DNA of 64,000 bases from an uncultured Streptomycetaceae bacterium (lineage in GTDB: Bacteria > Pseudomonadota > Gammaproteobacteria > Burkholderiales > SG8-41). Of this stretch, positions 2,468-60,022 are shown in pieces; position 1 is the first letter of the stretch; each line of letters starts with the position of its first letter. The notes under the pieces are model-generated. The model worked only from the letters and a program-made list of their open reading frames with translations. It did not search any database and was not told where the DNA came from. A program made the translations under genes and the position numbers. The stretch lies in assembly GCA_964521405.1 (NCBI GenBank), contig CAZFRR010000065.1, forward strand, positions 357 to 64,356. The letters run 5' to 3'.

Positions 2468-3777
2468 TAGTTCAGCTCTTCGAGTCGTATGCGGGTGACC
2501 TTGCCGACCACCACCGGCAGCTGCTCGATCTTCGCGATCGCCGCGTTCACGTGCTTCTCGACCGTGAGATGGGTCAGCAGGATGATGTCCACCTGGTCCT
2601 CGCCCTCGTGCGGCTCCTTCTGCACCATGGCATCGATGGAAATCGAAAGGTCGGCCAGGATGCGGGTGATGTCCGCGAGCACGCCCGGCCGGTCCTGGAC
2701 CCGCAGGCGCAGGTAGTAGGAGGTCTCGACCTCGCCCATCGGCAGGATCGGGGTGTCGGCAAGCCGGTCCGGCTGGAACGCAAGATGGGGCACGCGGTGC
2801 TCGGGGTCAGCCGTCAGCGTGCGCGCCACGTCCACCAGGTCCGCCACCACCGACGAGGCGGTCGGCTCGGCGCCAGCGCCAGCGCCGTAGTACAGGGTCT
2901 GCCCCACGGCATCGCCCTTCACCAGGATTGCATTCATCACGCCTTCGACATTGGCGATCAGGCGGCGCGCGGGTATCAGCGTCGGGTGCACCCGCAGCTC
3001 GATGCCGTTGCCCTTGCGCTTGGTGATGCCGAGCAGCTTGATGCGGTAACCCAGCTCCTCCGCGTAGCGGATATCCACCTGGGCCAGCTTCGAGATGCCC
3101 TCGGTATAGACCGCCTTGAACTGCATCGGGATGCCGAAGCCGATCGCCGCCATGATGGTCAGCTTGTGCGCGGCGTCCACGCCCTCGATGTCGAAAGTCG
3201 GGTCGGCCTCGGCATAGCCGCGGGCCTGCGCCTCCTTCAGCACCTCGGCGAAGCTCGACCCCTTGTCGCGCATTTCCGACAGGATGAAATTGCTGGTGCC
3301 GTTGATGATGCCGGCGATCCACTCGATGCGGTTGGCGGCGAGCCCCTCGCGCAGCGCCTTGACGATGGGGATCCCGCCGCCCACGGCGGCCTCGAACGCC
3401 ACCATCACGTCCTTCTTTTGGGCCGCGGCGAAAATCTCGTTGCCGTGCTGGGCGAGCAGCGCCTTATTGGCGGTGACGATGTGCTTGCCGTTGGCGATGG
3501 CCTTCAGCATGAGGTCCTTAGCGATGCCGGTGCCGCCGATCAACTCGACCACGATGTCGATTTCGGGGTTGCTCACGACCTCGTTGGCGTCGGCCGTCAC
3601 GGCGGCCTTGCCTCCGACCAGACGGCGTGCCCGGTCGAGATCCTTGTCCGCGACCATCTTCATGGTGATGGCGCAGCCGGCGCGACGGGCAATTTCCTCC
3701 TGGTTACGGGCGAGCACGGCAAACGTGCCGCCGCCCACGGTGCCGATGCCGAGCAGCCCGACGTTAATTGTTTTCAT
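2467..3777 (-). CDS. hom: Homoserine dehydrogenase
   Basis: 436 aa with NAD-binding N-terminus INVGLLGIGTVGGG and a C-terminal ACT-like region. Synteny with thrC supports the call. Confidence 0.95.
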   Translation of the reverse strand: MKTINVGLLGIGTVGGGTFAVLARNQEEIARRAGCAITMKMVADKDLDRARRLVGGKAAVTADANEVVSNPEIDIVVELIGGTGIAKDLMLKAIANGKHIVTANKALLAQHGNEIFAAAQKKDVMVAFEAAVGGGIPIVKALREGLAANRIEWIAGIINGTSNFILSEMRDKGSSFAEVLKEAQARGYAEADPTFDIEGVDAAHKLTIMAAIGFGIPMQFKAVYTEGISKLAQVDIRYAEELGYRIKLLGITKRKGNGIELRVHPTLIPARRLIANVEGVMNAILVKGDAVGQTLYYGAGAGAEPTASSVVADLVDVARTLTADPEHRVPHLAFQPDRLADTPILPMGEVETSYYLRLRVQDRPGVLADITRILADLSISIDAMVQKEPHEGEDQVDIILLTHLTVEKHVNAAIAKIEQLPVVVGKVTRIRLEELN

Positions 3778-3936
3778 AATGATGAATGATGAATGATGAA
3801 TGATGAACGGAAGAAATGGCCTGTCATGTTTCCGTCGATCACATCAATATTCATCAATGTCCTTTTTTGCCCACACTGCTCGCTTTTCATCGGTCCAATT
3901 TTCATTCCGCATTCATCATTCATCATTCATCATTCA
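3778..3936. repeat. Short-period array hairpin, AATGATG / CATTCAT flavour
   Basis: Left arm 3778-3807: 4 x AATGATG plus AA. Right arm 3903-3936: CATTCCG, then 3 x CATTCAT, then CATTCA. The core is about 95 nt and relatively AT-rich. The right arm contains the aminotransferase stop codon. Confidence 0.85.
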
Positions 3937-5118
3937 AAGCAGTCCGTCCTTCTTGAACATGTCCTTGATGCCCCGCAGCGCCTGCCGGCTGCGCGCCTCG
4001 TTTTCGATGAGCGCGAAGCGCACGTGGCCGTCGCCGTAATGGCCGAAGCCGATGCCCGGCGCCACCGCGATCTTCGCATCCGCCAGGAGCTTCTTGGAGA
4101 ATTCGAGCGAGCCCATCTTGCGATACGGCCCGGGTATCGGCGCCCAGATGTACATGGTCGCCTTGGGCACCTCGACTTTCCAGCCCATCGCGTTCATGCC
4201 GCTGCACATGACGTCGCGGCGGCTCTGGTACAGCCTGCGCGCGGTCTCCACGCAATCCTGCGGGCCCTCCAGCGCGATGATCGATGCCACCTGGATCGGC
4301 GTGAACGTGCCGTAATCGTGATAGCTCTTCATGCGCGCCAGCGCCGTGACCAGATCGCGGTTGCCGACCATGTAGCCCACGCGCCAGCCCGCCATGTTGT
4401 AGCTCTTCGACATGGTGAAGAATTCGACCGCGATCTCGCGTGCGCCGGGCACCTGCAGGATCGACGGCGCCTTGTAGCCGTCGAACACGATGTCCGCATA
4501 GGCGAGGTCGTGCACGATGTAGACGTGGTGCTCCCGCGCCAGCGCGACCAGCCGCTCGAAAAAAGCGAGGTCCACGCACTGGGTGGTCGGGTTGCTGGGA
4601 AAGTTGACGATCAGCATCTTCGGCTTGGGATAGGAATCCTTGAAGGCGCGCTCGACCGCCTCGAAGAAGTCGACGTCCGGCGACATCGGCACGTGCCGGA
4701 TGTCCGCGCCGGAGATCACCGGCCCGTAAATGTGGATCGGGTAGCTCGGATTCGGCACCAGCACGATGTCGCCGGTGTCGAGGGTGGCGAGCGCGAGGTG
4801 AGCGATGCCCTCCTTCGAGCCGATGGTGACGATCGCCTCGGAGTCGGGGTCGAGCTCGACGTTGTAGCGCGATTGGTACCAGCCGCAGATCGCGCGGCGC
4901 AGGCGAATGATGCCCTTCGACACCGAATAGCCGTGGGTGTCGGGACGTTGCACGGTCTCGACCAGCTTATCCACGATGTGACGCGGCGTCGGCTGGTCGG
5001 GGTTACCCATGCTGAAGTCGATGACGTCCTCGCCGCGCCGGCGCGCGGCGAGCTTCAACTCGCCGGTCACGTTGAACACGTACGGCGGCAGACGTTTTAT
5101 TCTTGCAAACTCTTCCAT
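3934..5118 (-). CDS. Class I/II PLP-dependent aminotransferase (AlaC/aspartate aminotransferase-like)
   Basis: ORF 3934..5163. The likely start is the ATG at 5118 ([16 protein letters not shown]). PLP-lysine context [13 protein letters not shown] is present. It lies upstream of hom-thrC. Confidence 0.88.
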
Positions 5119-5135
5119 TGGCTGCTTTTCTTCTA

Positions 5136-5169
5136 AGAAGTTTGTCGGAACGGAATCCGACAAACTTCT
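5136..5169. promoter_or_regulatory. Perfect 14-bp inverted repeat (AGAAGTTTGTCGGA-N6-TCCGACAAACTTCT) in the aminotransferase leader / divergent promoter region
   Basis: Read directly. It starts 18 nt upstream of the ATG at 5118 on the minus strand. Confidence 0.5.
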
Positions 5170-5230
5170 CGGCGCTGGATAAAGCGTGATATTCTATCGG
5201 AGCGACTAACCTTAAGCAAATCAGCAGGTT

Positions 5231-5602
5231 ATGAAGTTGCAACTGATTCCCAACGCGGGACTGCAGCTGTTCTCCGGATACGGGACGGGGTATGTCGCCA
5301 TCAATAACGTGCGCTATGAAAAGTGCGTGGTGGTGACGCCACAGGCGGTCAGGCCATGGGCGGTCGGCAGCTTCGAGTCGCTCACCGCGGCCGACTTCGG
5401 GTTCGTCGCGGAACTGAAGCCGGAAATCCTGATCCTCGGCACCGGCGCGCTGCAGCGCTTCCCGCAGCCCGAACTCGCGCGGGTGCTGGCCGGAAGCGGA
5501 GCGGGCGTTGAGGTGATGGACACCCGCGCCGCCTGCCGCACCTACAACATTCTCGCCGCCGAAGGCCGCAAGGTCGTCGCAGCCATCCTGCTCGAGACGT
5601 GA
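5231..5602 (+). CDS. Mth938-like (DUF498) small protein
   Basis: 123-aa ORF. The assignment rests on recalled family resemblance only. Confidence 0.55.
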   Translation: MKLQLIPNAGLQLFSGYGTGYVAINNVRYEKCVVVTPQAVRPWAVGSFESLTAADFGFVAELKPEILILGTGALQRFPQPELARVLAGSGAGVEVMDTRAACRTYNILAAEGRKVVAAILLET

Positions 5603-5642
5603 CTCGCGACGGGCAGCCCTTCACCCTCCAGTAGTCGCCAGA

Positions 5643-8600
5643 CTATCCCGTAGCGCCTCGCGCCACAGGACTCTCGCGCGCGAAAAGGGATTTGGCCTGC
5701 ACCGCCTCGCGCACGCTGGCACGCAAGACTTCATCGGTGCCGTCCTTGGGCAGGCAGCGGAAAATCCCGCCCTTGTTGACCGCAGCGGCCATGGTCTTGA
5801 AGTCGGCGTAGCGGGTCGTCAGGATGCGCATCGTTTTCGGCGACAGCGATTGCACGCACTGCAGGAAGTCCACCCCGGACATGCCCGGCATGTTCTGGTC
5901 GGAGACCACCACATCCACGAGGTGATCGCGCAGCAACGCGAGCCCTTCGCGCGCATTGCGCGCCGCGAGAATCCGGTAGCCGTCCTTCGCCAGGATGCGC
6001 TGGATGTGCGCGAGCGCGTCTTCCTCATCGTCCAGGAGCAGGACCACTGGCACGCTCGAGTCGGAGGCCGGTTTTGGCAGCTCGAGGCGGCGGCGCTCCC
6101 TCACCCAGGCGCTGCAATCCTCGGCCGCCATCGGGTGCGAGAAGTAATAGCCCTGGATCTCGTTGCAGCCATACTCGGCGAGAAACTCGAGCTGGGCCCG
6201 GGTTTCCACCCCTTCCGCTATCACTTTGAGCCCCAGGCTGTGCGCCATCGAGATGACCGCGCGCGTGATCGTCGCATCGTCGCCATCCGAGGTGATATCG
6301 CGCACGAAGGTGCGGTCGATCTTGAGCGCGGAGAGCGGGAAGCGCTTGAGATAACCCAGGCTCGAGTAACCCGTGCCGAAATCGTCAATGGAAAGGCTGA
6401 CGCCAAGCCGGTCCAGATACTCCAGGGTGCGCGCCGCCTCCTCGGTATTTGCCATCAGCGAGCTTTCCGTGATCTCCAGCTCGATCAGGGTGGCATCCAC
6501 CTGGTGCTCCTCGAGAATGCGCTTGATGGTCGGACCCAGGTCTTTTGCCGCGAACTGGCGGGCCGAGAGGTTGACCGCCACCGGGATCGGCCTCACGCCG
6601 GCGCGCTCCCAGTCCTTGATCTGCGAGCAGACCGCCCTGAGAACCCATTCTCCCACCTGAATGATAAAACCCGTCTCCTCCAGCAGCGGGATGAATTCCG
6701 CCGGCGAAACCAACCCGCGTTCGGGGTGCCGCCAGCGCAACAACGCTTCCAGGCCCGTCATGTCGCCATCCGCGACGCTGGCCTTGGGCTGGTAATACAT
6801 CAGGAACTCGTTGCGCTCCAGCGCGTGCCGCAGGCTGCTCTCCATGCCCAGAAACTGGACCGCGCTTGCGTTCATCTCGGGCGTGTAGAACTGGTAGCTG
6901 TTGCGGCCGAGTTCCTTGGCACGGTACATCGCCGCATCCGCGTTCCTGATCAATATGTCCTGATCGCTGCTGTCGTCGGGAAACAACGTGATGCCGATGC
7001 TGACCGTCACGTAAACCTCGGTGCCTTCCAGCCGGAACGGCTCGTTGAAGGCCGTCATAATCTTCTGCGCGACGATGTTCACGTCCTGGGCGCTGGCCAG
7101 CGTCGACAGGACGATCGAGAACTCGTCCCCGCCGAGCCGCCCCACGGTGTCGCCGGAGCGCACCGAGCGCGTCAGGCGCCCCGCAATCTGCTGCAACAGA
7201 TCGTCGCCGACGGCGTGCCCCAGCGTGTCGTTCACGTTCTTGAAGCGATCCACGTCGATGAACATGATGCCCATCGTCCACCGATTGCGCTTGGCCTGGA
7301 CCAGCGCATGCTTCAACCGGTCGTAGAACAGGACGCGGTTTGGCAGATTGGTCATGACATCGTAGTGCGCCAGGTGCTCCAGCCTTTCCTCGGCCTGTTT
7401 ACGGTCGGTCACGTCCTCGGCAATGCCGGCAATGCGGTACACCCTGCCATCGCCATCACGCACCGGGAACGCGCGATCATGCACCCAGCGCGTGGAGCCG
7501 TCCGCTCGCACGATGCGGTAGGTCTCGTCGTACCCCGATTCCACCGCGCTCTTGCGCGCGCTGTAGACCCGCGCCCGGTCCGCCTTGTGCACCGCGCGGA
7601 CCAGCGCCCGGGGGTCGGAGAGAATATCCTGGAGCGGCCGCCCCAGCATGGTTTCGGCCGCGGGGCTGACGTACAACGTCTGGCGGTGGGAAGTGTCGGT
7701 TATCCAGAACACCTGCGGAATATTGCCGGCCAGCTGGCGGAACTGTTCCTCGCTTTCCCGCAGGGCGGCTTCCGCGCGCACGCGCTCGGAGACGTCGTTC
7801 ACCAGGGTCAGCCACACCGGGCGCCCGTCGAGAGTAAAGAGCCGCGCCGTGACTTCGGTGTCGAGGAGGGTGCCGTCCTTGGTCCGGTGCCTGCGCTGCA
7901 TCTGCAGCGTCTGCTCGCCCGTGCGGTTGCGGATATTCTTCTCATAACGCGTCGCCTCGCCAGGCGCCCAGACATCGCGCACGTTCATGCGCAGAAATTC
8001 GTCCCGGCTGTAGCCGTAACGGGCGGTCGCAGCCTGGTTGACGGCGAGGATGTCGAGCGTCTCGTCGTCCCACACCCACATCGGCAGCGGGCTCGCCTCA
8101 AACACGTCCCGATAGCGCTCCTCGCTCGTGCGCAACGCCTGCTCTGCTTCCTTGCGCTGAATGAACTGGCCGATCTGGCTGCCAATCGAACTCACGACCT
8201 GCAGCAGCATCGCGTCCGGCTGGCGCGTTTCACGACCGAAGAACTCCATCACGCCGATGACAAGTCCGCCGGCGACGATCGGGAAGGCAAAGGCGCTGTG
8301 CAGCCCGAGCTTGCTTGAGCTTGCCTGACGGCGGAAGGAGGGATGCTGCCCGATATCGGCAAGCCACGTGGGTTCGTTCTGACGCCAGGCCCGACGCAGC
8401 AGCACCATGGATCCGTCCAAACCCTGCCGCATCCAGAGTTCGCGATCTTGAGGGTCGAATTCGGGCTCGAAATCGGCCCAATAATCGGCGCGGACCATGC
8501 CTTCTTCGTCGTTACAGATCCAGCGCGCGCCGTAGGCCCAATTCATTGCCCGACAGATGGTGTCCAGCAGCTTCGGCATCGCCTCATCCACCGAAGCCGC

Positions 8601-9539
8601 CTCGCTGATCACCTTCGTCACTGCGTGCTCCATTTCCTGGCGCAGCGCGATAAGCTTGCGCTCGGTTATGTCGCGGCTGATGCCGACCGTGCCGACGATC
8701 TTGCCCGACGGATCCCGCATCGGCACTTTCGATATAGCGGCCCACCGGCTGTCATCCAGCTTCCCATCCGGCGTGTTCAGGATGATCCTCTGCTCCCGCT
8801 CGGGCATCGGCACCCCGGTCCTGACGACGGCGGCGTCCTGGGCCTCCATCTTCTCGGCCATATCGCGGGTAAAGAAGTCGAACACGGTCTTGCCGGCAAT
8901 GTCATCGTCAGCCCGCCCGCGCGCCTTCAACCACGACTGGTTGGCCAGCACGAAACGTCCCTGCGCATCCTTGACGTAGATGTAATCGGGAACGGTGTCG
9001 ATGATCGTGCGCAATAGCACCCGCTCCCTGGCGGCGGCTTCCAGCGCCTGCTTGCGCTCGTTGATGTCCTCCATCATGCTGATGAAATAACGCGGCTTGC
9101 CTTCCGCATCTCTCACCAGCGATACGGTGCGGTTCAACCATAGCGGCGAGCCGTCCTTGCGCTGGTACATCCGTTCCGAAGAATAGGTCTCTAATTCTCC
9201 CAGCAGCACTTTGTTGTGTCTGCGGTGGCGATTCGTGCCGCGGCCATCGGGATGGCGTATATCATCCGCGGTCATGCCGAGCAGCTCGCCGGGAGCGTAT
9301 CCCAGCATCGTGGCGAGCCGCGCGTTCGCGTGCAGGATCCGGTCGTCCTCAATCGAGGTATGCATGATGCCGACAGGCGCGTAATCAAACGTCGCCCGGA
9401 AGCGGTCTTCGCTTTCGAGCAGCGCCTGCCAGATGCGGCTGCGGCCGGGAATATCCTGCGCCTGCGTCGGGGGACGCTTGGTCCGCCGACGCTCCTTACG
9501 CACCGGCTTCTCACTGATTTTTTGAAACGGCCTTGCCAT
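5643..9539 (-). CDS. Cytoplasmic c-di-GMP signalling protein, PAS-PAS-GAF-PAS-PAS-GGDEF-EAL-REC
   Basis: 1298 aa. Motifs: RLGGDEF, EALLRWRHP, DDFGTGYSSL, and a C-terminal receiver with DQNMPGMSG. No transmembrane segment is evident. Confidence 0.9.
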   Translation of the reverse strand: MARPFQKISEKPVRKERRRTKRPPTQAQDIPGRSRIWQALLESEDRFRATFDYAPVGIMHTSIEDDRILHANARLATMLGYAPGELLGMTADDIRHPDGRGTNRHRRHNKVLLGELETYSSERMYQRKDGSPLWLNRTVSLVRDAEGKPRYFISMMEDINERKQALEAAARERVLLRTIIDTVPDYIYVKDAQGRFVLANQSWLKARGRADDDIAGKTVFDFFTRDMAEKMEAQDAAVVRTGVPMPEREQRIILNTPDGKLDDSRWAAISKVPMRDPSGKIVGTVGISRDITERKLIALRQEMEHAVTKVISEAASVDEAMPKLLDTICRAMNWAYGARWICNDEEGMVRADYWADFEPEFDPQDRELWMRQGLDGSMVLLRRAWRQNEPTWLADIGQHPSFRRQASSSKLGLHSAFAFPIVAGGLVIGVMEFFGRETRQPDAMLLQVVSSIGSQIGQFIQRKEAEQALRTSEERYRDVFEASPLPMWVWDDETLDILAVNQAATARYGYSRDEFLRMNVRDVWAPGEATRYEKNIRNRTGEQTLQMQRRHRTKDGTLLDTEVTARLFTLDGRPVWLTLVNDVSERVRAEAALRESEEQFRQLAGNIPQVFWITDTSHRQTLYVSPAAETMLGRPLQDILSDPRALVRAVHKADRARVYSARKSAVESGYDETYRIVRADGSTRWVHDRAFPVRDGDGRVYRIAGIAEDVTDRKQAEERLEHLAHYDVMTNLPNRVLFYDRLKHALVQAKRNRWTMGIMFIDVDRFKNVNDTLGHAVGDDLLQQIAGRLTRSVRSGDTVGRLGGDEFSIVLSTLASAQDVNIVAQKIMTAFNEPFRLEGTEVYVTVSIGITLFPDDSSDQDILIRNADAAMYRAKELGRNSYQFYTPEMNASAVQFLGMESSLRHALERNEFLMYYQPKASVADGDMTGLEALLRWRHPERGLVSPAEFIPLLEETGFIIQVGEWVLRAVCSQIKDWERAGVRPIPVAVNLSARQFAAKDLGPTIKRILEEHQVDATLIELEITESSLMANTEEAARTLEYLDRLGVSLSIDDFGTGYSSLGYLKRFPLSALKIDRTFVRDITSDGDDATITRAVISMAHSLGLKVIAEGVETRAQLEFLAEYGCNEIQGYYFSHPMAAEDCSAWVRERRRLELPKPASDSSVPVVLLLDDEEDALAHIQRILAKDGYRILAARNAREGLALLRDHLVDVVVSDQNMPGMSGVDFLQCVQSLSPKTMRILTTRYADFKTMAAAVNKGGIFRCLPKDGTDEVLRASVREAVQAKSLFARESPVARGATG

Positions 9540-9669
9540 CCCCCCTCCGCAACGGCCACCGGCCCTTGTTCCCGCTAGACTTAATGCAAAAAAAGTTCAA
9601 AGATACCGTAAGTTACCATCAAATCCTCACCCTGAACAGGAACTATAACCTGCCCCCTATAACCTCGAT

Positions 9670-10635
9670 ATGGCAAACTCGGCGCAACCTCCGGTTACGG
9701 TCATCATGACTCAGATCATGACTCAGCACATCGAAAAGGTCATCGCACAAGTCGGCAGCATCATCCTGGGCAAGGAAGGGCAGATCCGGCTTGCCATCGC
9801 CTGCCTGCTGGCGCGCGGCCACCTGTTGATCGAGGACATACCGGGCGTGGGGAAAACCATGCTGGCGCACGCGCTGGCGACTTCACTCGGGCTGGCGTTC
9901 CAGCGCATCCAGTTCACCAGCGATCTCCTTCCCGCCGACATCATCGGGGTCTCCACCTACAACCGCGACAGCGGCGGCTTCCAGTTCCACCCCGGCCCGA
10001 TCTTCAGCCAGGTCGTGCTGGCCGACGAGGTCAACCGGGCGACACCCAAGGCGCAGAGCGCGCTGCTCGAGGCGATGGAGGAGCACCAGGTGACGACCGA
10101 GGGCGAAACCCGGCACCTGCCCGAGCCGTTCTTCGTGATCGCAACGCAGAATCCCTCCTACCAGGTGGGCACGTTCCCGCTGCCCGAGTCGCAGCTTGAC
10201 CGCTTCCTCATGCGCATCCACCTGGGCTACCCGGACGGAGAGGCGGAACGCGCGCTGTTGCAGGGCGTGGACCGGCGCGATCTCCTCGCAACGCTCAAGC
10301 CCGTCATGAACCCGCAGGAATTGGCGGCGCTTCAGCTGAGCGCGCAGCAGGTCCACGCTTCGAATGCCCTGCTCGATTACGTGCAGGCGCTGACCGACCA
10401 TACCCGCCGTTCAGCGGACTACATCAACGGGCTGTCGCCGCGCGCCGCGCTTGCGCTGCTGCACGCCGCCCGCGCCTGGGCCTTGATGGCGGGACGTTCC
10501 CACGTCGTGCCGGAGGACGTGCAAGCCGTGCTGCCCGTGGTCGTCGGCCATCGCCTGGTCCCCACCGCCGAAATCACCCGGGCCAATGGCGCCGACGTGG
10601 CGCAGCAACTCATCAAACAGGTCGCCATACCATAA
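9670..10635 (+). CDS. MoxR-family AAA+ ATPase
   Basis: 321 aa. Walker A PGVGKT, Walker B LADEVNR and VIATQNP are present, with typical MoxR length. Confidence 0.92.
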   Translation: MANSAQPPVTVIMTQIMTQHIEKVIAQVGSIILGKEGQIRLAIACLLARGHLLIEDIPGVGKTMLAHALATSLGLAFQRIQFTSDLLPADIIGVSTYNRDSGGFQFHPGPIFSQVVLADEVNRATPKAQSALLEAMEEHQVTTEGETRHLPEPFFVIATQNPSYQVGTFPLPESQLDRFLMRIHLGYPDGEAERALLQGVDRRDLLATLKPVMNPQELAALQLSAQQVHASNALLDYVQALTDHTRRSADYINGLSPRAALALLHAARAWALMAGRSHVVPEDVQAVLPVVVGHRLVPTAEITRANGADVAQQLIKQVAIP

Positions 10636-10636
10636 T

Positions 10637-10712
10637 GTTCCGGGTTCCGGGTTCCGGGTTGATGTGAACCTTGAACCTTGAACCTTGAACTCGGAACTCG
10701 GAACTCGGAACC
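10637..10712. repeat. Short-period array hairpin, GGTTC / GAACC flavour
   Basis: Left arm: 3 x GTTCCGG plus GTT (10637-10660). Loop: GATGT. Right arm: 3 x GAACCTT, 3 x GAACTCG, then GAACC (10666-10712). It fills the whole 81-nt moxR-DUF58 spacer. Confidence 0.9.
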
Positions 10713-13797: not shown

Positions 13798-13920
13798 GTT
13801 CCGGGTTCCGGGTTCCGGGTTCCGGGTTCCGGGTTCCGGGTTCCGGGTTCAAGATTGGAGTGGGCTGCAAATGGAGGATTCCGACTTTGAACTCGGAACT
13901 TTGAACTCGGAACCTTGAAC
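13798..13920. repeat. Short-period array hairpin, GGTTC / GAACC flavour
   Basis: Left arm: 7 x GTTCCGG plus GTTCAAG (13798-13853). The core is 29 nt. Right arm: GACTTTG AACTCGG AACTTTG AACTCGG AACCTTG AAC (13883-13920). The copy number was checked against the translation of ORF 13643..13918. Confidence 0.9.
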
Positions 13921-29147: not shown

Positions 29148-29969
29148 TTGCATTTTTCCCGAATCATCGTCGCCGAACTGATCGACGCTCTCGACCGCGG
29201 CAAGGTCATTTCCTCGGTCATCGAGCGCAATCCGCAATTTGACTGGGATGCGGCCTACCGGGTCGCAGCCGACATCGTCAAGCTGCGGCGGGCACGCGGT
29301 GAGAAGACCATTGGGCGCAAGATCGGCTTCACCAACCGCAACATCTGGGCGGAGTACGGCGCCACCGCGCCGATCTGGGCGCACGTCTACGATCGCACCG
29401 TGCAGTTCGCGGACGGCGATCGCGCCACCGTTTCGCTGGAAGGCAGTGTGCAACCGCGGCTCGAGCCCGAGATCGCGTTCAAGCTCAAGGCTCCGCTGCG
29501 CCCGGGCGTCAATCATCCCGCGCTGGTTCTCGAGGCGATCGAGTGGTTGGCGCCGAGCTTCGAGATCGTGGACTGCCACTTCGCCGGCTGGAAGTTCGGG
29601 CCGGCGGAATCAGCAGCTGATTTTTCATTCCACTGGAAGCTCATCGTTGGCACGCCCTGCCCTATTCGGCGCGACGCGATCGCCGATCTCGTGGACCGGC
29701 TCCGCGACTGCAACGTCGAGCTCAGCAGGAATGGGCAAGTCGCGGATCGGGGCACGGGCGCGAACGCGTTGGGACACCCCGCGCTCGCTCTCGCCTTTCT
29801 CGCCGATATCCTGATGCGGCAGCCGCAGTTCGAGCCGCTCGCGGCGGGAGAGATCATCACCACCGGCACGCTGACAGCCGCGATGCCGATCCGGCCGGGT
29901 GAGTCGTGGTCCTCGCGCTATGAGGGCTTGCCCGGCGTAACAGGCCTTTCACTCGTCTTCACCGAGTGA
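29148..29969 (+). CDS. 2-keto-4-pentenoate hydratase / 4-oxalocrotonate decarboxylase family (MhpD-like) protein
   Basis: 273 aa. The TTG start lies 8 nt after the SD AGGAG. Segments IGRKIGFTNRNIW and GEIITTGTLT are present. Confidence 0.75.
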   Translation: MHFSRIIVAELIDALDRGKVISSVIERNPQFDWDAAYRVAADIVKLRRARGEKTIGRKIGFTNRNIWAEYGATAPIWAHVYDRTVQFADGDRATVSLEGSVQPRLEPEIAFKLKAPLRPGVNHPALVLEAIEWLAPSFEIVDCHFAGWKFGPAESAADFSFHWKLIVGTPCPIRRDAIADLVDRLRDCNVELSRNGQVADRGTGANALGHPALALAFLADILMRQPQFEPLAAGEIITTGTLTAAMPIRPGESWSSRYEGLPGVTGLSLVFTE

Positions 29970-29975
29970 AAGACC

Positions 29976-30062
29976 AATGAGGAATGATGAATGCAAAATG
30001 ATGACCTGAAGACCTAAAACCGACCTTCCGTTCATCATTCATCATTCATCATTCATCATTCC
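29976..30062. repeat. Short-period array hairpin, AATGATG / CATTCAT flavour (second copy)
   Basis: Left arm: AATGAGG AATGATG AATGCAA AATGATG A (29976-30004). The core is about 24 nt. Right arm: CG, then 4 x TTCATCA, then TTCC (30029-30062). The right arm supplies the last comEC codons and its stop. Confidence 0.85.
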
Positions 30063-36857: not shown

Positions 36858-37023
36858 GGTGAAACCACCCCCATCCCAACCTTCCCCCTGAGGGGGAAGG
36901 GGAATTTTTTCTTCCCCCTGAGGGGGAGGAGAACTCTTTTCTGCGCGAGAAAAAACATTCCCTCCCCCTCAGGGGGAGGGCCAGGGTGGGGGTGGTTCGT
37001 TTGCTTCGCGACCACTCATTCTG
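36858..37023. repeat. GC-rich nested-palindrome element, copy 1
   Basis: The outer stem ACCACCCCCATCCC / GGGTGGGGGTGGT encloses three hairpins: CCTTCCCCC-TGA-GGGGGAAGG, CTTCCCCC-TGA-GGGGGAGG and CCCTCCCCC-TCA-GGGGGAGGG. It is the reverse complement of 59782-60022. Confidence 0.85.
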
Positions 37024-46930: not shown

Positions 46931-47129
46931 GTTCAAAGTTCAAGGTTCAAGGTTCAAGGTTCAAAGTTCAAGGTTCAAGATTGTCAGTGCGAGCTGCCGC
47001 TCGCGATTTTGAACCCGGAACCCGGAACCCGGAACCCGGAACCCGGAACACGGAACCCGGAACCCGGAACCCGGAACCTGGAACCTGGAACCTGGAACTC
47101 GAAACTCGGAACCCGGAACCCGGAACTCA
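46931..47129. repeat. Largest array hairpin in the window, GGTTC / GAACC flavour (7 + 17 units)
   Basis: Left arm, 7 units of GTTCAA(A/G) (46931-46979). The 31-nt core carries the hairpin GCGAGC-TGCC-GCTCGC followed by GATTTT. Right arm, 17 units (47011-47129): 5 x GAACCCG, GAACACG, 3 x GAACCCG, 3 x GAACCTG, GAACTCG, AAACTCG, 2 x GAACCCG, GAACTCA. Checked against ORF translations. Confidence 0.9.
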
Positions 47130-59781: not shown

Positions 59782-60022
59782 CAGAATGAGTGGTCGCGGA
59801 GCAAACGAACCACCCCCACCCTGGCCCTCCCGGTCCCCCACTCCTTCCCTCTCCCCCGAAAGGGGAGAGGAAGCTCGAGCCTCCCCTCTCAGCTTGGGAG
59901 AGGGGCGAGGGGGAGGGAATGTTTATTTCCTCTCGCAGAAAAGAGTTCTCCTTCCCCCTGAGGGGGAAGAAAAAATTCCCCTTCCCCCTCAGGGGGAAGG
60001 TTGGGATGGGGGTGGTTTCACC
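59782..60022. repeat. GC-rich nested-palindrome element, copy 2 (inverted relative to copy 1, with a 78-nt nested insertion)
   Basis: It is collinear with the reverse complement of 36858-37023. The exception is that the loop of the first hairpin is replaced at 59831-59908 by two extra hairpins (TTCCCTCTCCCC-CGAA-AGGGGAGAGGAA and CCTCCCCTCTC-AGCT-TGGGAGAGGGG). Confidence 0.85.

What the first reader, a model, noticed from the sequence alone, without database searches (positions are those of the whole stretch)
3778..3936. Two AATGATG/CATTCAT hairpins 26 kb apart share arms and a 12-nt arm-core junction but have unrelated cores
The elements at 3778-3936 and 29976-30062 use the same heptamer. Both carry GATGAACGGAAG at the inner edge of one arm: 3802-3813 on the plus strand, and 30025-30036 as the reverse complement. 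Their cores differ completely, at about 95 nt versus about 24 nt. A shared junction argues for common descent or a copying mechanism rather than independent local slippage. The unrelated cores argue against a simple MITE.
Basis: seen in the sequence. Interest (0 to 1): 0.6.

Follow-up and report, generated by a model that had tools for sequence, protein, structure and literature searches.

The report
Two resident AATGATG heptamer-array gene-end hairpins
The two look-alike hairpins are real, but each has been inherited at its own gene boundary as part of a widespread class of gene-end hairpins built from 7-base repeats, and they are not copies of a jumping element.

Summary
The two loci share an exact 36-nt stretch: 4.3 AATGATG units plus CGGAAG. 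Their opposite arms also match at 23 of 26 positions, while the cores are unrelated.

Only 6 nt of the "12-mer" lie outside the repeat, and in both elements those 6 nt belong to the inner stem.

Each element has orthologues at its own site in related uncultured Burkholderiales. At site 1 the arm plus junction is 36/36 identical to the orthologue, against 61/88 for the core. At site 2 the junction reads CGGAAG, CGGAGG, CGGACG or CCCCCG among orthologues. Other relatives carry quite different heptamers at the same two spacers.

The junction is not a family hallmark: 1 of 162 AATGATG array ends in reference genomes has it. It does recur, in 91 metagenome contigs with varied cores.

AATGATG hairpins occur in at least three phyla and always in one polarity (79:0). 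This puts TGA stops in all frames at the gene-facing arm, and genes often use them.

Best reading: two resident members of a heptamer-array gene-end hairpin class, shaped by slippage and arm homogenisation. Ancient copying or arm exchange is not excluded. Function is inferred, not shown.

The parts
3775..3777 (-). Start codon ATG of homoserine dehydrogenase (hom). It directly abuts the last repeat unit, and no Shine-Dalgarno sequence precedes it.
3778..3807 (-). Element 1, perfect arm: AATGATG x4.3 on the + strand. On the alaC-hom mRNA (minus strand) this is the 3' arm, (UUCAUCA)n.
   Evidence: It is 30/30 identical in orthologues L317 and L325-L329.
3808..3813 (-). Element 1 junction CGGAAG (CUUCCG on the mRNA), part of the inner stem.
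   Evidence: It is invariant in six site-1 sequences.
3814..3901 (-). Element 1 core, specific to this site. It is homologous to the core of the site-1 orthologues but diverged (61/88 identical). It holds the pairing partner of the junction at 3828-3841 (GTTTCCGTCGATCA on +).
   Evidence: No Rfam family matches.
3902..3936 (-). Element 1 second arm, the 5' arm on the mRNA: UGA AUGAUG... x3, then AAUGCGG, then AAUGAAAA. The alaC stop codon TGA (3934-3936) is the first TGA of the array.
   Evidence: Length differs from orthologues in steps of 14-15 nt.
29967..29969 (+). Stop codon TGA of the FAA-hydrolase-family (2-oxopent-4-enoate hydratase-like) gene, 6 nt before element 2.
29976..30004 (+). 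Element 2 degenerate arm: AATGAGG AATGATG AATGCAA AATGATG A.
   Evidence: In orthologue L332 the third unit is AATGCGG.
30005..30024 (.). Element 2 core and loop (CCTGAAGACCTAAAACCGAC). It is unrelated to the core of element 1 and homologous to the core in L332.
30025..30030 (+). Element 2 junction CTTCCG (the reverse complement of CGGAAG), paired with GAAG at 30008-30011.
   Evidence: Orthologues read CCTCCG (L332), CCGTCCGC (L337) or GGGGG (L338).
30031..30061 (-). Element 2 perfect arm: TTCATCA x4.4 on +, which is AATGATG on the ComEC strand. The last five ComEC codons (MMNDE) and its stop TGA (30042-30044) are repeat units.

Best explanation
The two loci are resident, vertically inherited members of a class of gene-end palindromes whose arms are tandem heptamer arrays. 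The class is genome-wide here and, for this unit, spans several phyla. These two happen to carry the same unit, AATGATG. They are not transposed copies of one element.

Shown:
- Each fills a defined gene boundary. Element 1 runs from the alaC stop to the hom start. Element 2 lies between the converging hydratase-like and ComEC genes.
- Each has orthologues at the same boundary in relatives.
- Other relatives carry different units at the same boundary.
- Arm length changes in steps of 7 or 14 nt.
- Arm plus junction is conserved far more than the core.
- The AATGATG array always lies 5' of its CATCATT partner. Whichever gene runs into the hairpin therefore meets a TGA in every reading frame within 21 nt.

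Inferred:
- The arms grow and shrink by replication slippage.
- The arms are kept complementary by selection for the hairpin and/or by intrastrand template switching.
- The shared 36-mer reflects the narrow, recurrent sequence repertoire of this unit. Occasional homologous exchange between same-unit arms may reinforce it.

Likely function (inferred): an RNA hairpin at gene 3' ends that ribosomes cannot read through, acting as an mRNA-end stabiliser, a processing site (for example RNase III) or a weak terminator. In the alaC-hom spacer, the stem base places the UGA stop next to the AUG start. This geometry would favour termination-reinitiation coupling in the absence of a Shine-Dalgarno sequence.
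For: Class context: about two dozen 7-9-nt array hairpins with roughly ten different units lie in this 64-kb window, mostly in co-directional or convergent spacers.

Site 1:
- Orthologues L317 and L325-L329 (flanks 82-87% identical) keep the same arm, junction and a homologous core.
- Arm plus junction is 36/36 identical against 61/88 for the core (Fisher p = 3e-5).
- Relatives with 87-92% Hom identity carry GAGGGTC/CGTCACT, AGGCGGA or TGAGTGC hairpins at the same spacer. All of them start at the stop codon.

Site 2:
- L332, L337 and L338 keep an AATGATG hairpin, with junction variants.
- L334, L339 and L340 have GGGATGA, GATACGA or AGTCGAA arrays at the ComEC end.

Recurrence elsewhere:
- (AATGATG)3 arrays are found in more than 119 reference-genome contigs. 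By record title, the hairpins come from Acidobacteriota, Bacteroidota and Betaproteobacteria.
- The exact 22-mer with the junction occurs in 91 metagenome contigs with varied cores. Only one of these (L317) shares flanks with the window.

Polarity and stop codons:
- The partner array lies downstream in 40 (reference genomes) and 39 (metagenomes) cases, and upstream only in none.
- A long ORF ends at or in the 5' arm in 27/40 and 26/36 cases, mostly at the array's own TGA.
- ComEC homologues end either at ...DPEEF* or with array-encoded tails such as GMMNDE, GMQNDE and GGMRDEG.

Folding: z-scores of -5.0 and -4.6.
Against: - The match between the two elements goes beyond the unit: an exact 36 nt plus 23-25 of 26 nt in the other arm.
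- The empirical collision rate for phase plus 6-mer is only 0.5% per comparison.
- Other same-unit pairs in the window share at most 2 nt past the array.
- A historical link between the two loci therefore remains plausible.
- No transcript, processing or termination data were obtained. The RNA runs are assemblies that break at the repeat.
- Neither element has a canonical intrinsic terminator.
Confidence: 0.55

Rival explanations
1. Common descent by copying. At some time before the sampled relatives diverged, one hairpin's arms and junction were copied to the other boundary. The route could have been ectopic recombination or gene conversion between hairpins, or a hairpin-mobilising enzyme. 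The cores remained site-specific.
For: - Exact 36-nt identity, with the same 4.3-unit copy number at both sites and in the orthologues of both.
- The second arms share 25/26 nt, with the AATGCGG variant at the same position.
- The chance rate is about 0.5% per comparison.
- This pair is an outlier among same-unit pairs in the window.
- The same site-2 hairpin is flanked by ComEC or by RelA on one side and by the hydratase or DUF2126 on the other in different relatives. The arms therefore sit at rearrangement break points and could recombine.
Against: - The cores are unrelated.
- There are no target-site duplications or terminal signatures.
- No transposase was found among the 20 flanking proteins scanned.
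- Both elements are old at their own sites.
- The junction differs among site-2 orthologues, so the exact 12-mer identity is specific to this genome.
- The same junction and the AATGCGG variant recur in unrelated phyla, so they are weak markers of descent.
Confidence: 0.27
2. Independent local origin with a purely coincidental junction. Two arrays arose separately by slippage from stop-codon-containing seeds, and the six extra shared bases are chance in a purine-rich, low-complexity context.
For: - The bases after AATGATG arrays are purine-rich: 61% A+G and only 12% C.
- An unrelated Blastocatellia genome has the identical 12-mer.
- Site-2 orthologues differ at one or two junction bases.
- Units change quickly at the same spacer among relatives.
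Against: - The empirical collision rate is still low, at 0.5%.
- Similarity also exists in the other arm.
- The junction at site 1 is conserved 6/6 while the adjacent core diverged, so it is constrained rather than random filler.
Confidence: 0.15

Closest known systems
Xanthomonas GGGAATC (and Nostoc GGGGA(C/T)T) heptamer repeats, including convergent inverted pairs (Rehm et al. 2015, PMC4692102)
   Same: - Tandem 7-nt units, mostly intergenic and close to the neighbouring ORF.
- 70-75 cases per genome of two arrays in convergent orientation that could form stem-loops.
[quoted passage not shown]
   Different: - The unit there is G-rich and was studied as a G-quadruplex former, with one dominant unit per genome.
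- Here the unit is AATGATG among about ten units in one window.
- The arms carry stop codons in all frames and have a strict polarity.
- Genes borrow stop and start codons from the arrays.
TAACTGA intergenic heptamer direct repeats of Beggiatoaceae, Cyanobacteria and Bacteroidetes (MacGregor 2015, PMC4679880)
   Same: - A heptamer containing stop codons.
- Arrays within a few nucleotides of start codons that lack a canonical ribosome-binding site.
- A patchy distribution across unrelated phyla with no evident transfer mechanism.
   Different: Those are direct repeats, with only one indirect repeat among 170 sets. The elements here are paired inverted arrays that form long hairpins.
REP/BIME/REPIN elements
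   Same: Hairpin-forming extragenic repeats at gene 3' ends and between co-directional or convergent genes. From my own knowledge, their proposed roles are mRNA stabilisation and attenuation.
   Different: - REPs are single short imperfect palindromes with one conserved sequence per family, mobilised by a RAYT transposase.
- Here the arms are tandem arrays, units differ from site to site, and cores are site-specific.
- Presence of a RAYT gene could not be tested.
MITEs
   Same: Terminal inverted repeats around a short non-coding interior.
   Different: - No target-site duplication.
- No conserved interior between copies.
- The element boundaries coincide with stop and start codons.

Membership tests
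Heptamer-SSR convergent inverted pairs (Xanthomonas type, PMC4692102) | Tandem perfect or near-perfect 7-nt units | tested here: met
   AATGATG x4.3 and x3.9 in element 1, and x4.4 plus a degenerate x4.1 array in element 2.
Heptamer-SSR convergent inverted pairs (Xanthomonas type, PMC4692102) | Two arrays close together, one on each strand, able to form a stem-loop | tested here: met
   Fold energies of -58 and -32 kcal/mol, with z-scores of -5.0 and -4.6.
Heptamer-SSR convergent inverted pairs (Xanthomonas type, PMC4692102) | Intergenic, next to an ORF end, with the same site occupied in relatives but varying in length and sequence | tested here: met
Heptamer-SSR convergent inverted pairs (Xanthomonas type, PMC4692102) | G-rich unit (GGGAATC) with G-quadruplex potential | tested here: not met
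   The unit AATGATG has no G run.
MITE | Target-site duplication flanking the terminal inverted repeats | tested here: not met
   The flanks are TTTTCAT|...|CAAAGCA for element 1 and AAGACC|...|CCGAAT for element 2.
MITE | Copies share the internal sequence | tested here: not met
   Core alignment is no better than shuffles (823/2000).
MITE | Empty sites in related genomes | tested here: inconclusive
   No clean empty site was found. Relatives have other hairpins at the same spacers, and L333 keeps only a short remnant.
REP/REPIN | One conserved palindrome sequence repeated across the genome | tested here: not met
   There are about ten different units in one window, and the unit differs at orthologous sites.
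REP/REPIN | Cognate RAYT (Y1 HUH) transposase gene in the genome | not testable with these tools
None was found among the 20 window proteins scanned.
Intrinsic (Rho-independent) terminator | Short G+C-rich stem followed by a U tract | tested here: not met
   No terminator-like site was found at either locus.
Any Rfam RNA family | Match at the family's gathering score | tested here: not met
   Only two tRNAs match in the whole window. At the locus there are only sub-threshold hits.

The most novel reading that the evidence does not exclude
AATGATG palindromes may be a sequence-specific gene-end module shared across phyla. In this reading:

- An all-frame translational stop (TGA every 7 nt on whichever strand a gene enters) is fused to a long hairpin.
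- The module has recurrent sub-motifs: AATGCGG variant units, and an AAC-GGAAG(A/G) inner-stem junction.
- These are maintained by selection, for example through a protein or RNase that recognises them.
- The 30-nt perfect arms serve as portable substrates for homologous exchange. This spreads arm-plus-junction modules between loci and seeds rearrangements.

The two window elements would then be linked by such an exchange.
Probability: 0.25. Interest if true: 0.7.

Novelty: new variant of a known kind. Interest (0 to 1): 0.42.

Why it matters
Heptamer arrays are known to be over-represented in bacterial genomes but have no accepted function (PMC4692102).

This case shows three things at single-site resolution:

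- A hairpin is kept at a given gene boundary while its repeat unit is replaced.
- The arms are conserved much more strongly than the interior.
- Genes take stop and start codons, and short protein tails, from the arrays.

The strict polarity of AATGATG hairpins, together with their use as stop codons across phyla, gives a concrete and testable functional hypothesis: a translation-proof RNA hairpin at gene ends, which in operons could couple the upstream stop to the downstream start.

It also cautions against reading shared arms or junctions of low-complexity palindromes as evidence of transposition.

Tried and rejected
- Exact look-up of the window's Hom protein found nothing, so relatives were reached through homologues instead.
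- Viral-contig scan for AATGATGAACGGAAG gave 104 hits. None had an array in front, so this is chance noise.
- Rfam search found no family. The weak hits to archaeal C/D-box sRNAs (13-17 bits against cut-offs of 40-45) arise only because AUGAUGA equals the C-box consensus, and were rejected.
- Promoter and terminator scans gave one weak promoter-like site inside element 1 and no terminator.
- The core of element 1 has no similarity to the core of element 2.
- Metatranscriptome runs X3 and X5 are assembled contigs that break at the arrays and come from a relative. They say nothing about transcript ends.
- The full-text literature search for the repeat letters found no bacterial report.

Full report
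**Observation**

Element 1 (3778-3936) and element 2 (29976-30062) are as described.
- AATGATG dimers occur nine times in the window, only at these two loci. The chance expectation is 0.02.
- GATGAACGGAAG is present exactly twice, at 3802-3813 (+) and 30025-30036 (-).
- Six of the twelve bases (GATGAA) are still repeat, so the non-repeat junction is CGGAAG.
- The real exact match is longer than reported: 36 nt, 3778-3813 against the reverse complement of 30025-30060.
- The opposite arms also match, at 23/26 positions. The match is 25/26 if the site-2 orthologue L332 is used, with an AATGCGG variant unit in the same place.
- The cores are unrelated.
- CGGAAG is paired in both predicted structures.
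- Both elements fold far better than shuffled sequence, with z-scores of -5.0 and -4.6.

**Setting**

Element 1 fills the whole spacer between two genes on the minus strand: an aminotransferase (alaC-like) and homoserine dehydrogenase, with threonine synthase next in line.
- The alaC stop TGA is the first TGA of the array.
- The hom ATG follows the last unit directly, with no Shine-Dalgarno sequence.

Element 2 lies between a converging FAA-hydrolase-family gene and ComEC.
- The last five ComEC codons (MMNDE) and its stop are repeat units.

The window holds about two dozen similar hairpins built from roughly ten different 7-9-nt units. They lie mostly in co-directional or convergent spacers. 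Earlier notes of this scan had flagged that class. I used them only as leads.

**Each element is old at its own site**

The organism is an uncultured Burkholderiales-type betaproteobacterium from freshwater sediment, judged from the names on homologues and from the runs that hold it.

Site 1:
- Six contigs of a related clade (flanks 82-87% identical) carry the same element with the same junction and a homologous core.
- Arm plus junction is 36/36 identical, while the core is 61/88 (Fisher p = 3e-5).
- The other arm differs by 14-15-nt steps.
- Relatives with 87-92% Hom identity have hairpins of quite different units at the same spacer: GAGGGTC/CGTCACT, AGGCGGA and TGAGTGC. All begin at the stop codon.

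Site 2:
- L332 (95% hydratase identity) has the same hairpin and core, but its junction is CGGAGG.
- L337 has GAGCGGACGG and L338 has GATGACCCCC.
- L334, L339 and L340 have GGGATGA, GATACGA or AGTCGAA arrays at the ComEC end.
- L333 keeps only a remnant.

The exact 12-mer identity is therefore specific to this genome, and there was no recent copying.

**Is the junction a family hallmark?**

No.
By record title, the hairpins among them come from Acidobacteriota, Bacteroidota and Betaproteobacteria.
- Only 1 of 162 array ends there (a Blastocatellia genome) has GATGAA|CGGAAG.
- In the sediment runs that hold the exact element, the summed contig depth over the arm is 5,000-8,000, against about 15 in the flanks. 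Many contigs join the same arms to other cores. They diverge from element 1 at 3799-3812, and none of the listed ones reaches 3813.

The junction does recur, however.
- The 22-mer AATGATGAATGATGAACGGAAG is in 91 metagenome contigs with varied cores. Only one of them (L317) shares flanks with the window.
- The sequence after it is usually purine-rich (CGGAAGA...), with ...CTTCYGTTCATC on the other side.
- The AATGCGG variant is likewise the commonest double-mutant unit across phyla.

These sub-motifs are therefore recurrent solutions and weak markers of descent. Still, the empirical rate at which two unrelated array ends share phase plus 6 nt is 0.5%. Other same-unit pairs in the window share at most 2 nt past the array. 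An old link or an arm exchange between the two loci therefore cannot be dismissed.

**Class properties found on the way**
- In hairpins, the AATGATG array always lies 5' of its CATCATT partner. The partner is downstream in 40 and 39 cases (reference genomes and metagenomes) and upstream only in none.
- Because 7 is not a multiple of 3, this orientation puts a TGA in every frame within 21 nt for a gene entering from either side. The opposite orientation has no stop in any frame.
- A long ORF ends at or in that arm in 27/40 and 26/36 cases, mostly at the array's own TGA.
- ComEC homologues end either at ...DPEEF* or with array-encoded tails such as GMMNDE, GMQNDE and GGMRDEG.
- Many Hom homologues have array-encoded N-terminal extensions.
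- The site-2 hairpin is flanked by ComEC or by RelA on one side, and by the hydratase or DUF2126 on the other, in different relatives. Synteny therefore breaks at these arms.

**Mechanism**

Shown:
- Residence at gene boundaries.
- Replacement of the unit over time.
- Length change in steps of 7 or 14 nt.
- Arms conserved more strongly than the core.
- Strict polarity.
- Use of the arrays as stop and start codons.

Inferred:
- Replication slippage changes the copy number.
- Selection for the hairpin, and/or intrastrand template switching, keeps the two arms alike.
- Same-unit arms of about 30 nt can recombine.
- The transcript hairpin, protected from ribosomes by its built-in stops, acts as an mRNA-end stabiliser, a processing site or a weak terminator.
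- In the alaC-hom spacer the stem base juxtaposes UGA and AUG. The same geometry is seen in three of the five unit variants at this site. It would favour termination-reinitiation.

No canonical terminator and no Rfam family is present, and no transcript data could be used.

**Comparison with known systems**
- The closest described systems are the Xanthomonas/Nostoc heptamer repeats with convergent pairs (PMC4692102) and the TAACTGA direct repeats (PMC4679880).
- The elements fail the MITE tests: no target-site duplication and no shared interior.
- They fail the REP test of one conserved palindrome. The RAYT criterion could not be tested.
- No bacterial report of AATGATG arrays was found.

**Verdict**
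- This is a new variant of a known kind.
- Interest is moderate.

Noticed in passing
window 3778-3933 and loci L224, L317, L325-L331: The same alaC-hom spacer carries five different heptamer-array hairpins among relatives with 87-92% Hom identity: AATGATG, AATGATG/AATGCGG, GAGGGTC/CGTCACT, AGGCGGA and TGAGTGC. All begin at the alaC stop codon. Three end exactly at the hom ATG.
   Followed up: partly
window 30042-30061; proteins P0241-P0360 and P0001-P0120: Arrays are partly translated. ComEC homologues end at ...DPEEF* or carry array-encoded tails (GMMNDE, GMQNDE, GGMRDEG, KDEG and others). Many Hom homologues have 8-47-residue N-terminal extensions such as MKAKGERRKAKASSRK, read from repeat units.
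   Followed up: partly
window 29970-30062; L332, L334, L337, L338, L340: Synteny breaks at the hairpin. The hydratase gene faces ComEC in the window and in L337, but RelA in L332 and L334. ComEC faces DUF2126 in L338 and the tag glycosylase in L334 and L340. RelA and the roughly 10-kb block next to it in L334 are absent from this window.
   Followed up: partly
GTDB loci L001-L119 and metagenome loci L234-L324: AATGATG hairpins have a strict polarity: the AATGATG array is 5' and the CATCATT array is 3', in 79 cases against 0. Genes commonly stop at the array's own TGA.
   Followed up: yes
L015, L025, L027, L087 (Acidobacteriota): AATGATG hairpins from different acidobacterial genomes share a similar short core, TAAAGAC-N-GTCTTTA. 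The GAAGAC/GTCTTC inner stem also recurs in many metagenome hits. This hints at a conserved inner-stem motif.
   Followed up: no
window 36858-36919 and 59961-60022; L334 10823-10870: A different repeat family, CTTCCCCCTGAGGGGGAAGG-type G/C hairpins, forms a 62-nt exact inverted pair 23 kb apart in the window. The same type of hairpin replaces the AATGATG hairpin after the hydratase gene in L334 and L335.
   Followed up: no
window 3781-3817, sediment runs X1, X2, X3, X5: Summed contig depth over the AATGATG arm is 3,400-9,800, against about 15 for the flanks. AATGATG arrays are therefore very abundant in these sediment communities, including in metatranscriptome assemblies.
   Followed up: partly
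window 13798-13850 and 47009-47126; 10637-10660: GTTCCGG/GAACCCG-type arrays at three loci share up to 41 nt exactly. Same-unit hairpins are common within this genome.
   Followed up: no
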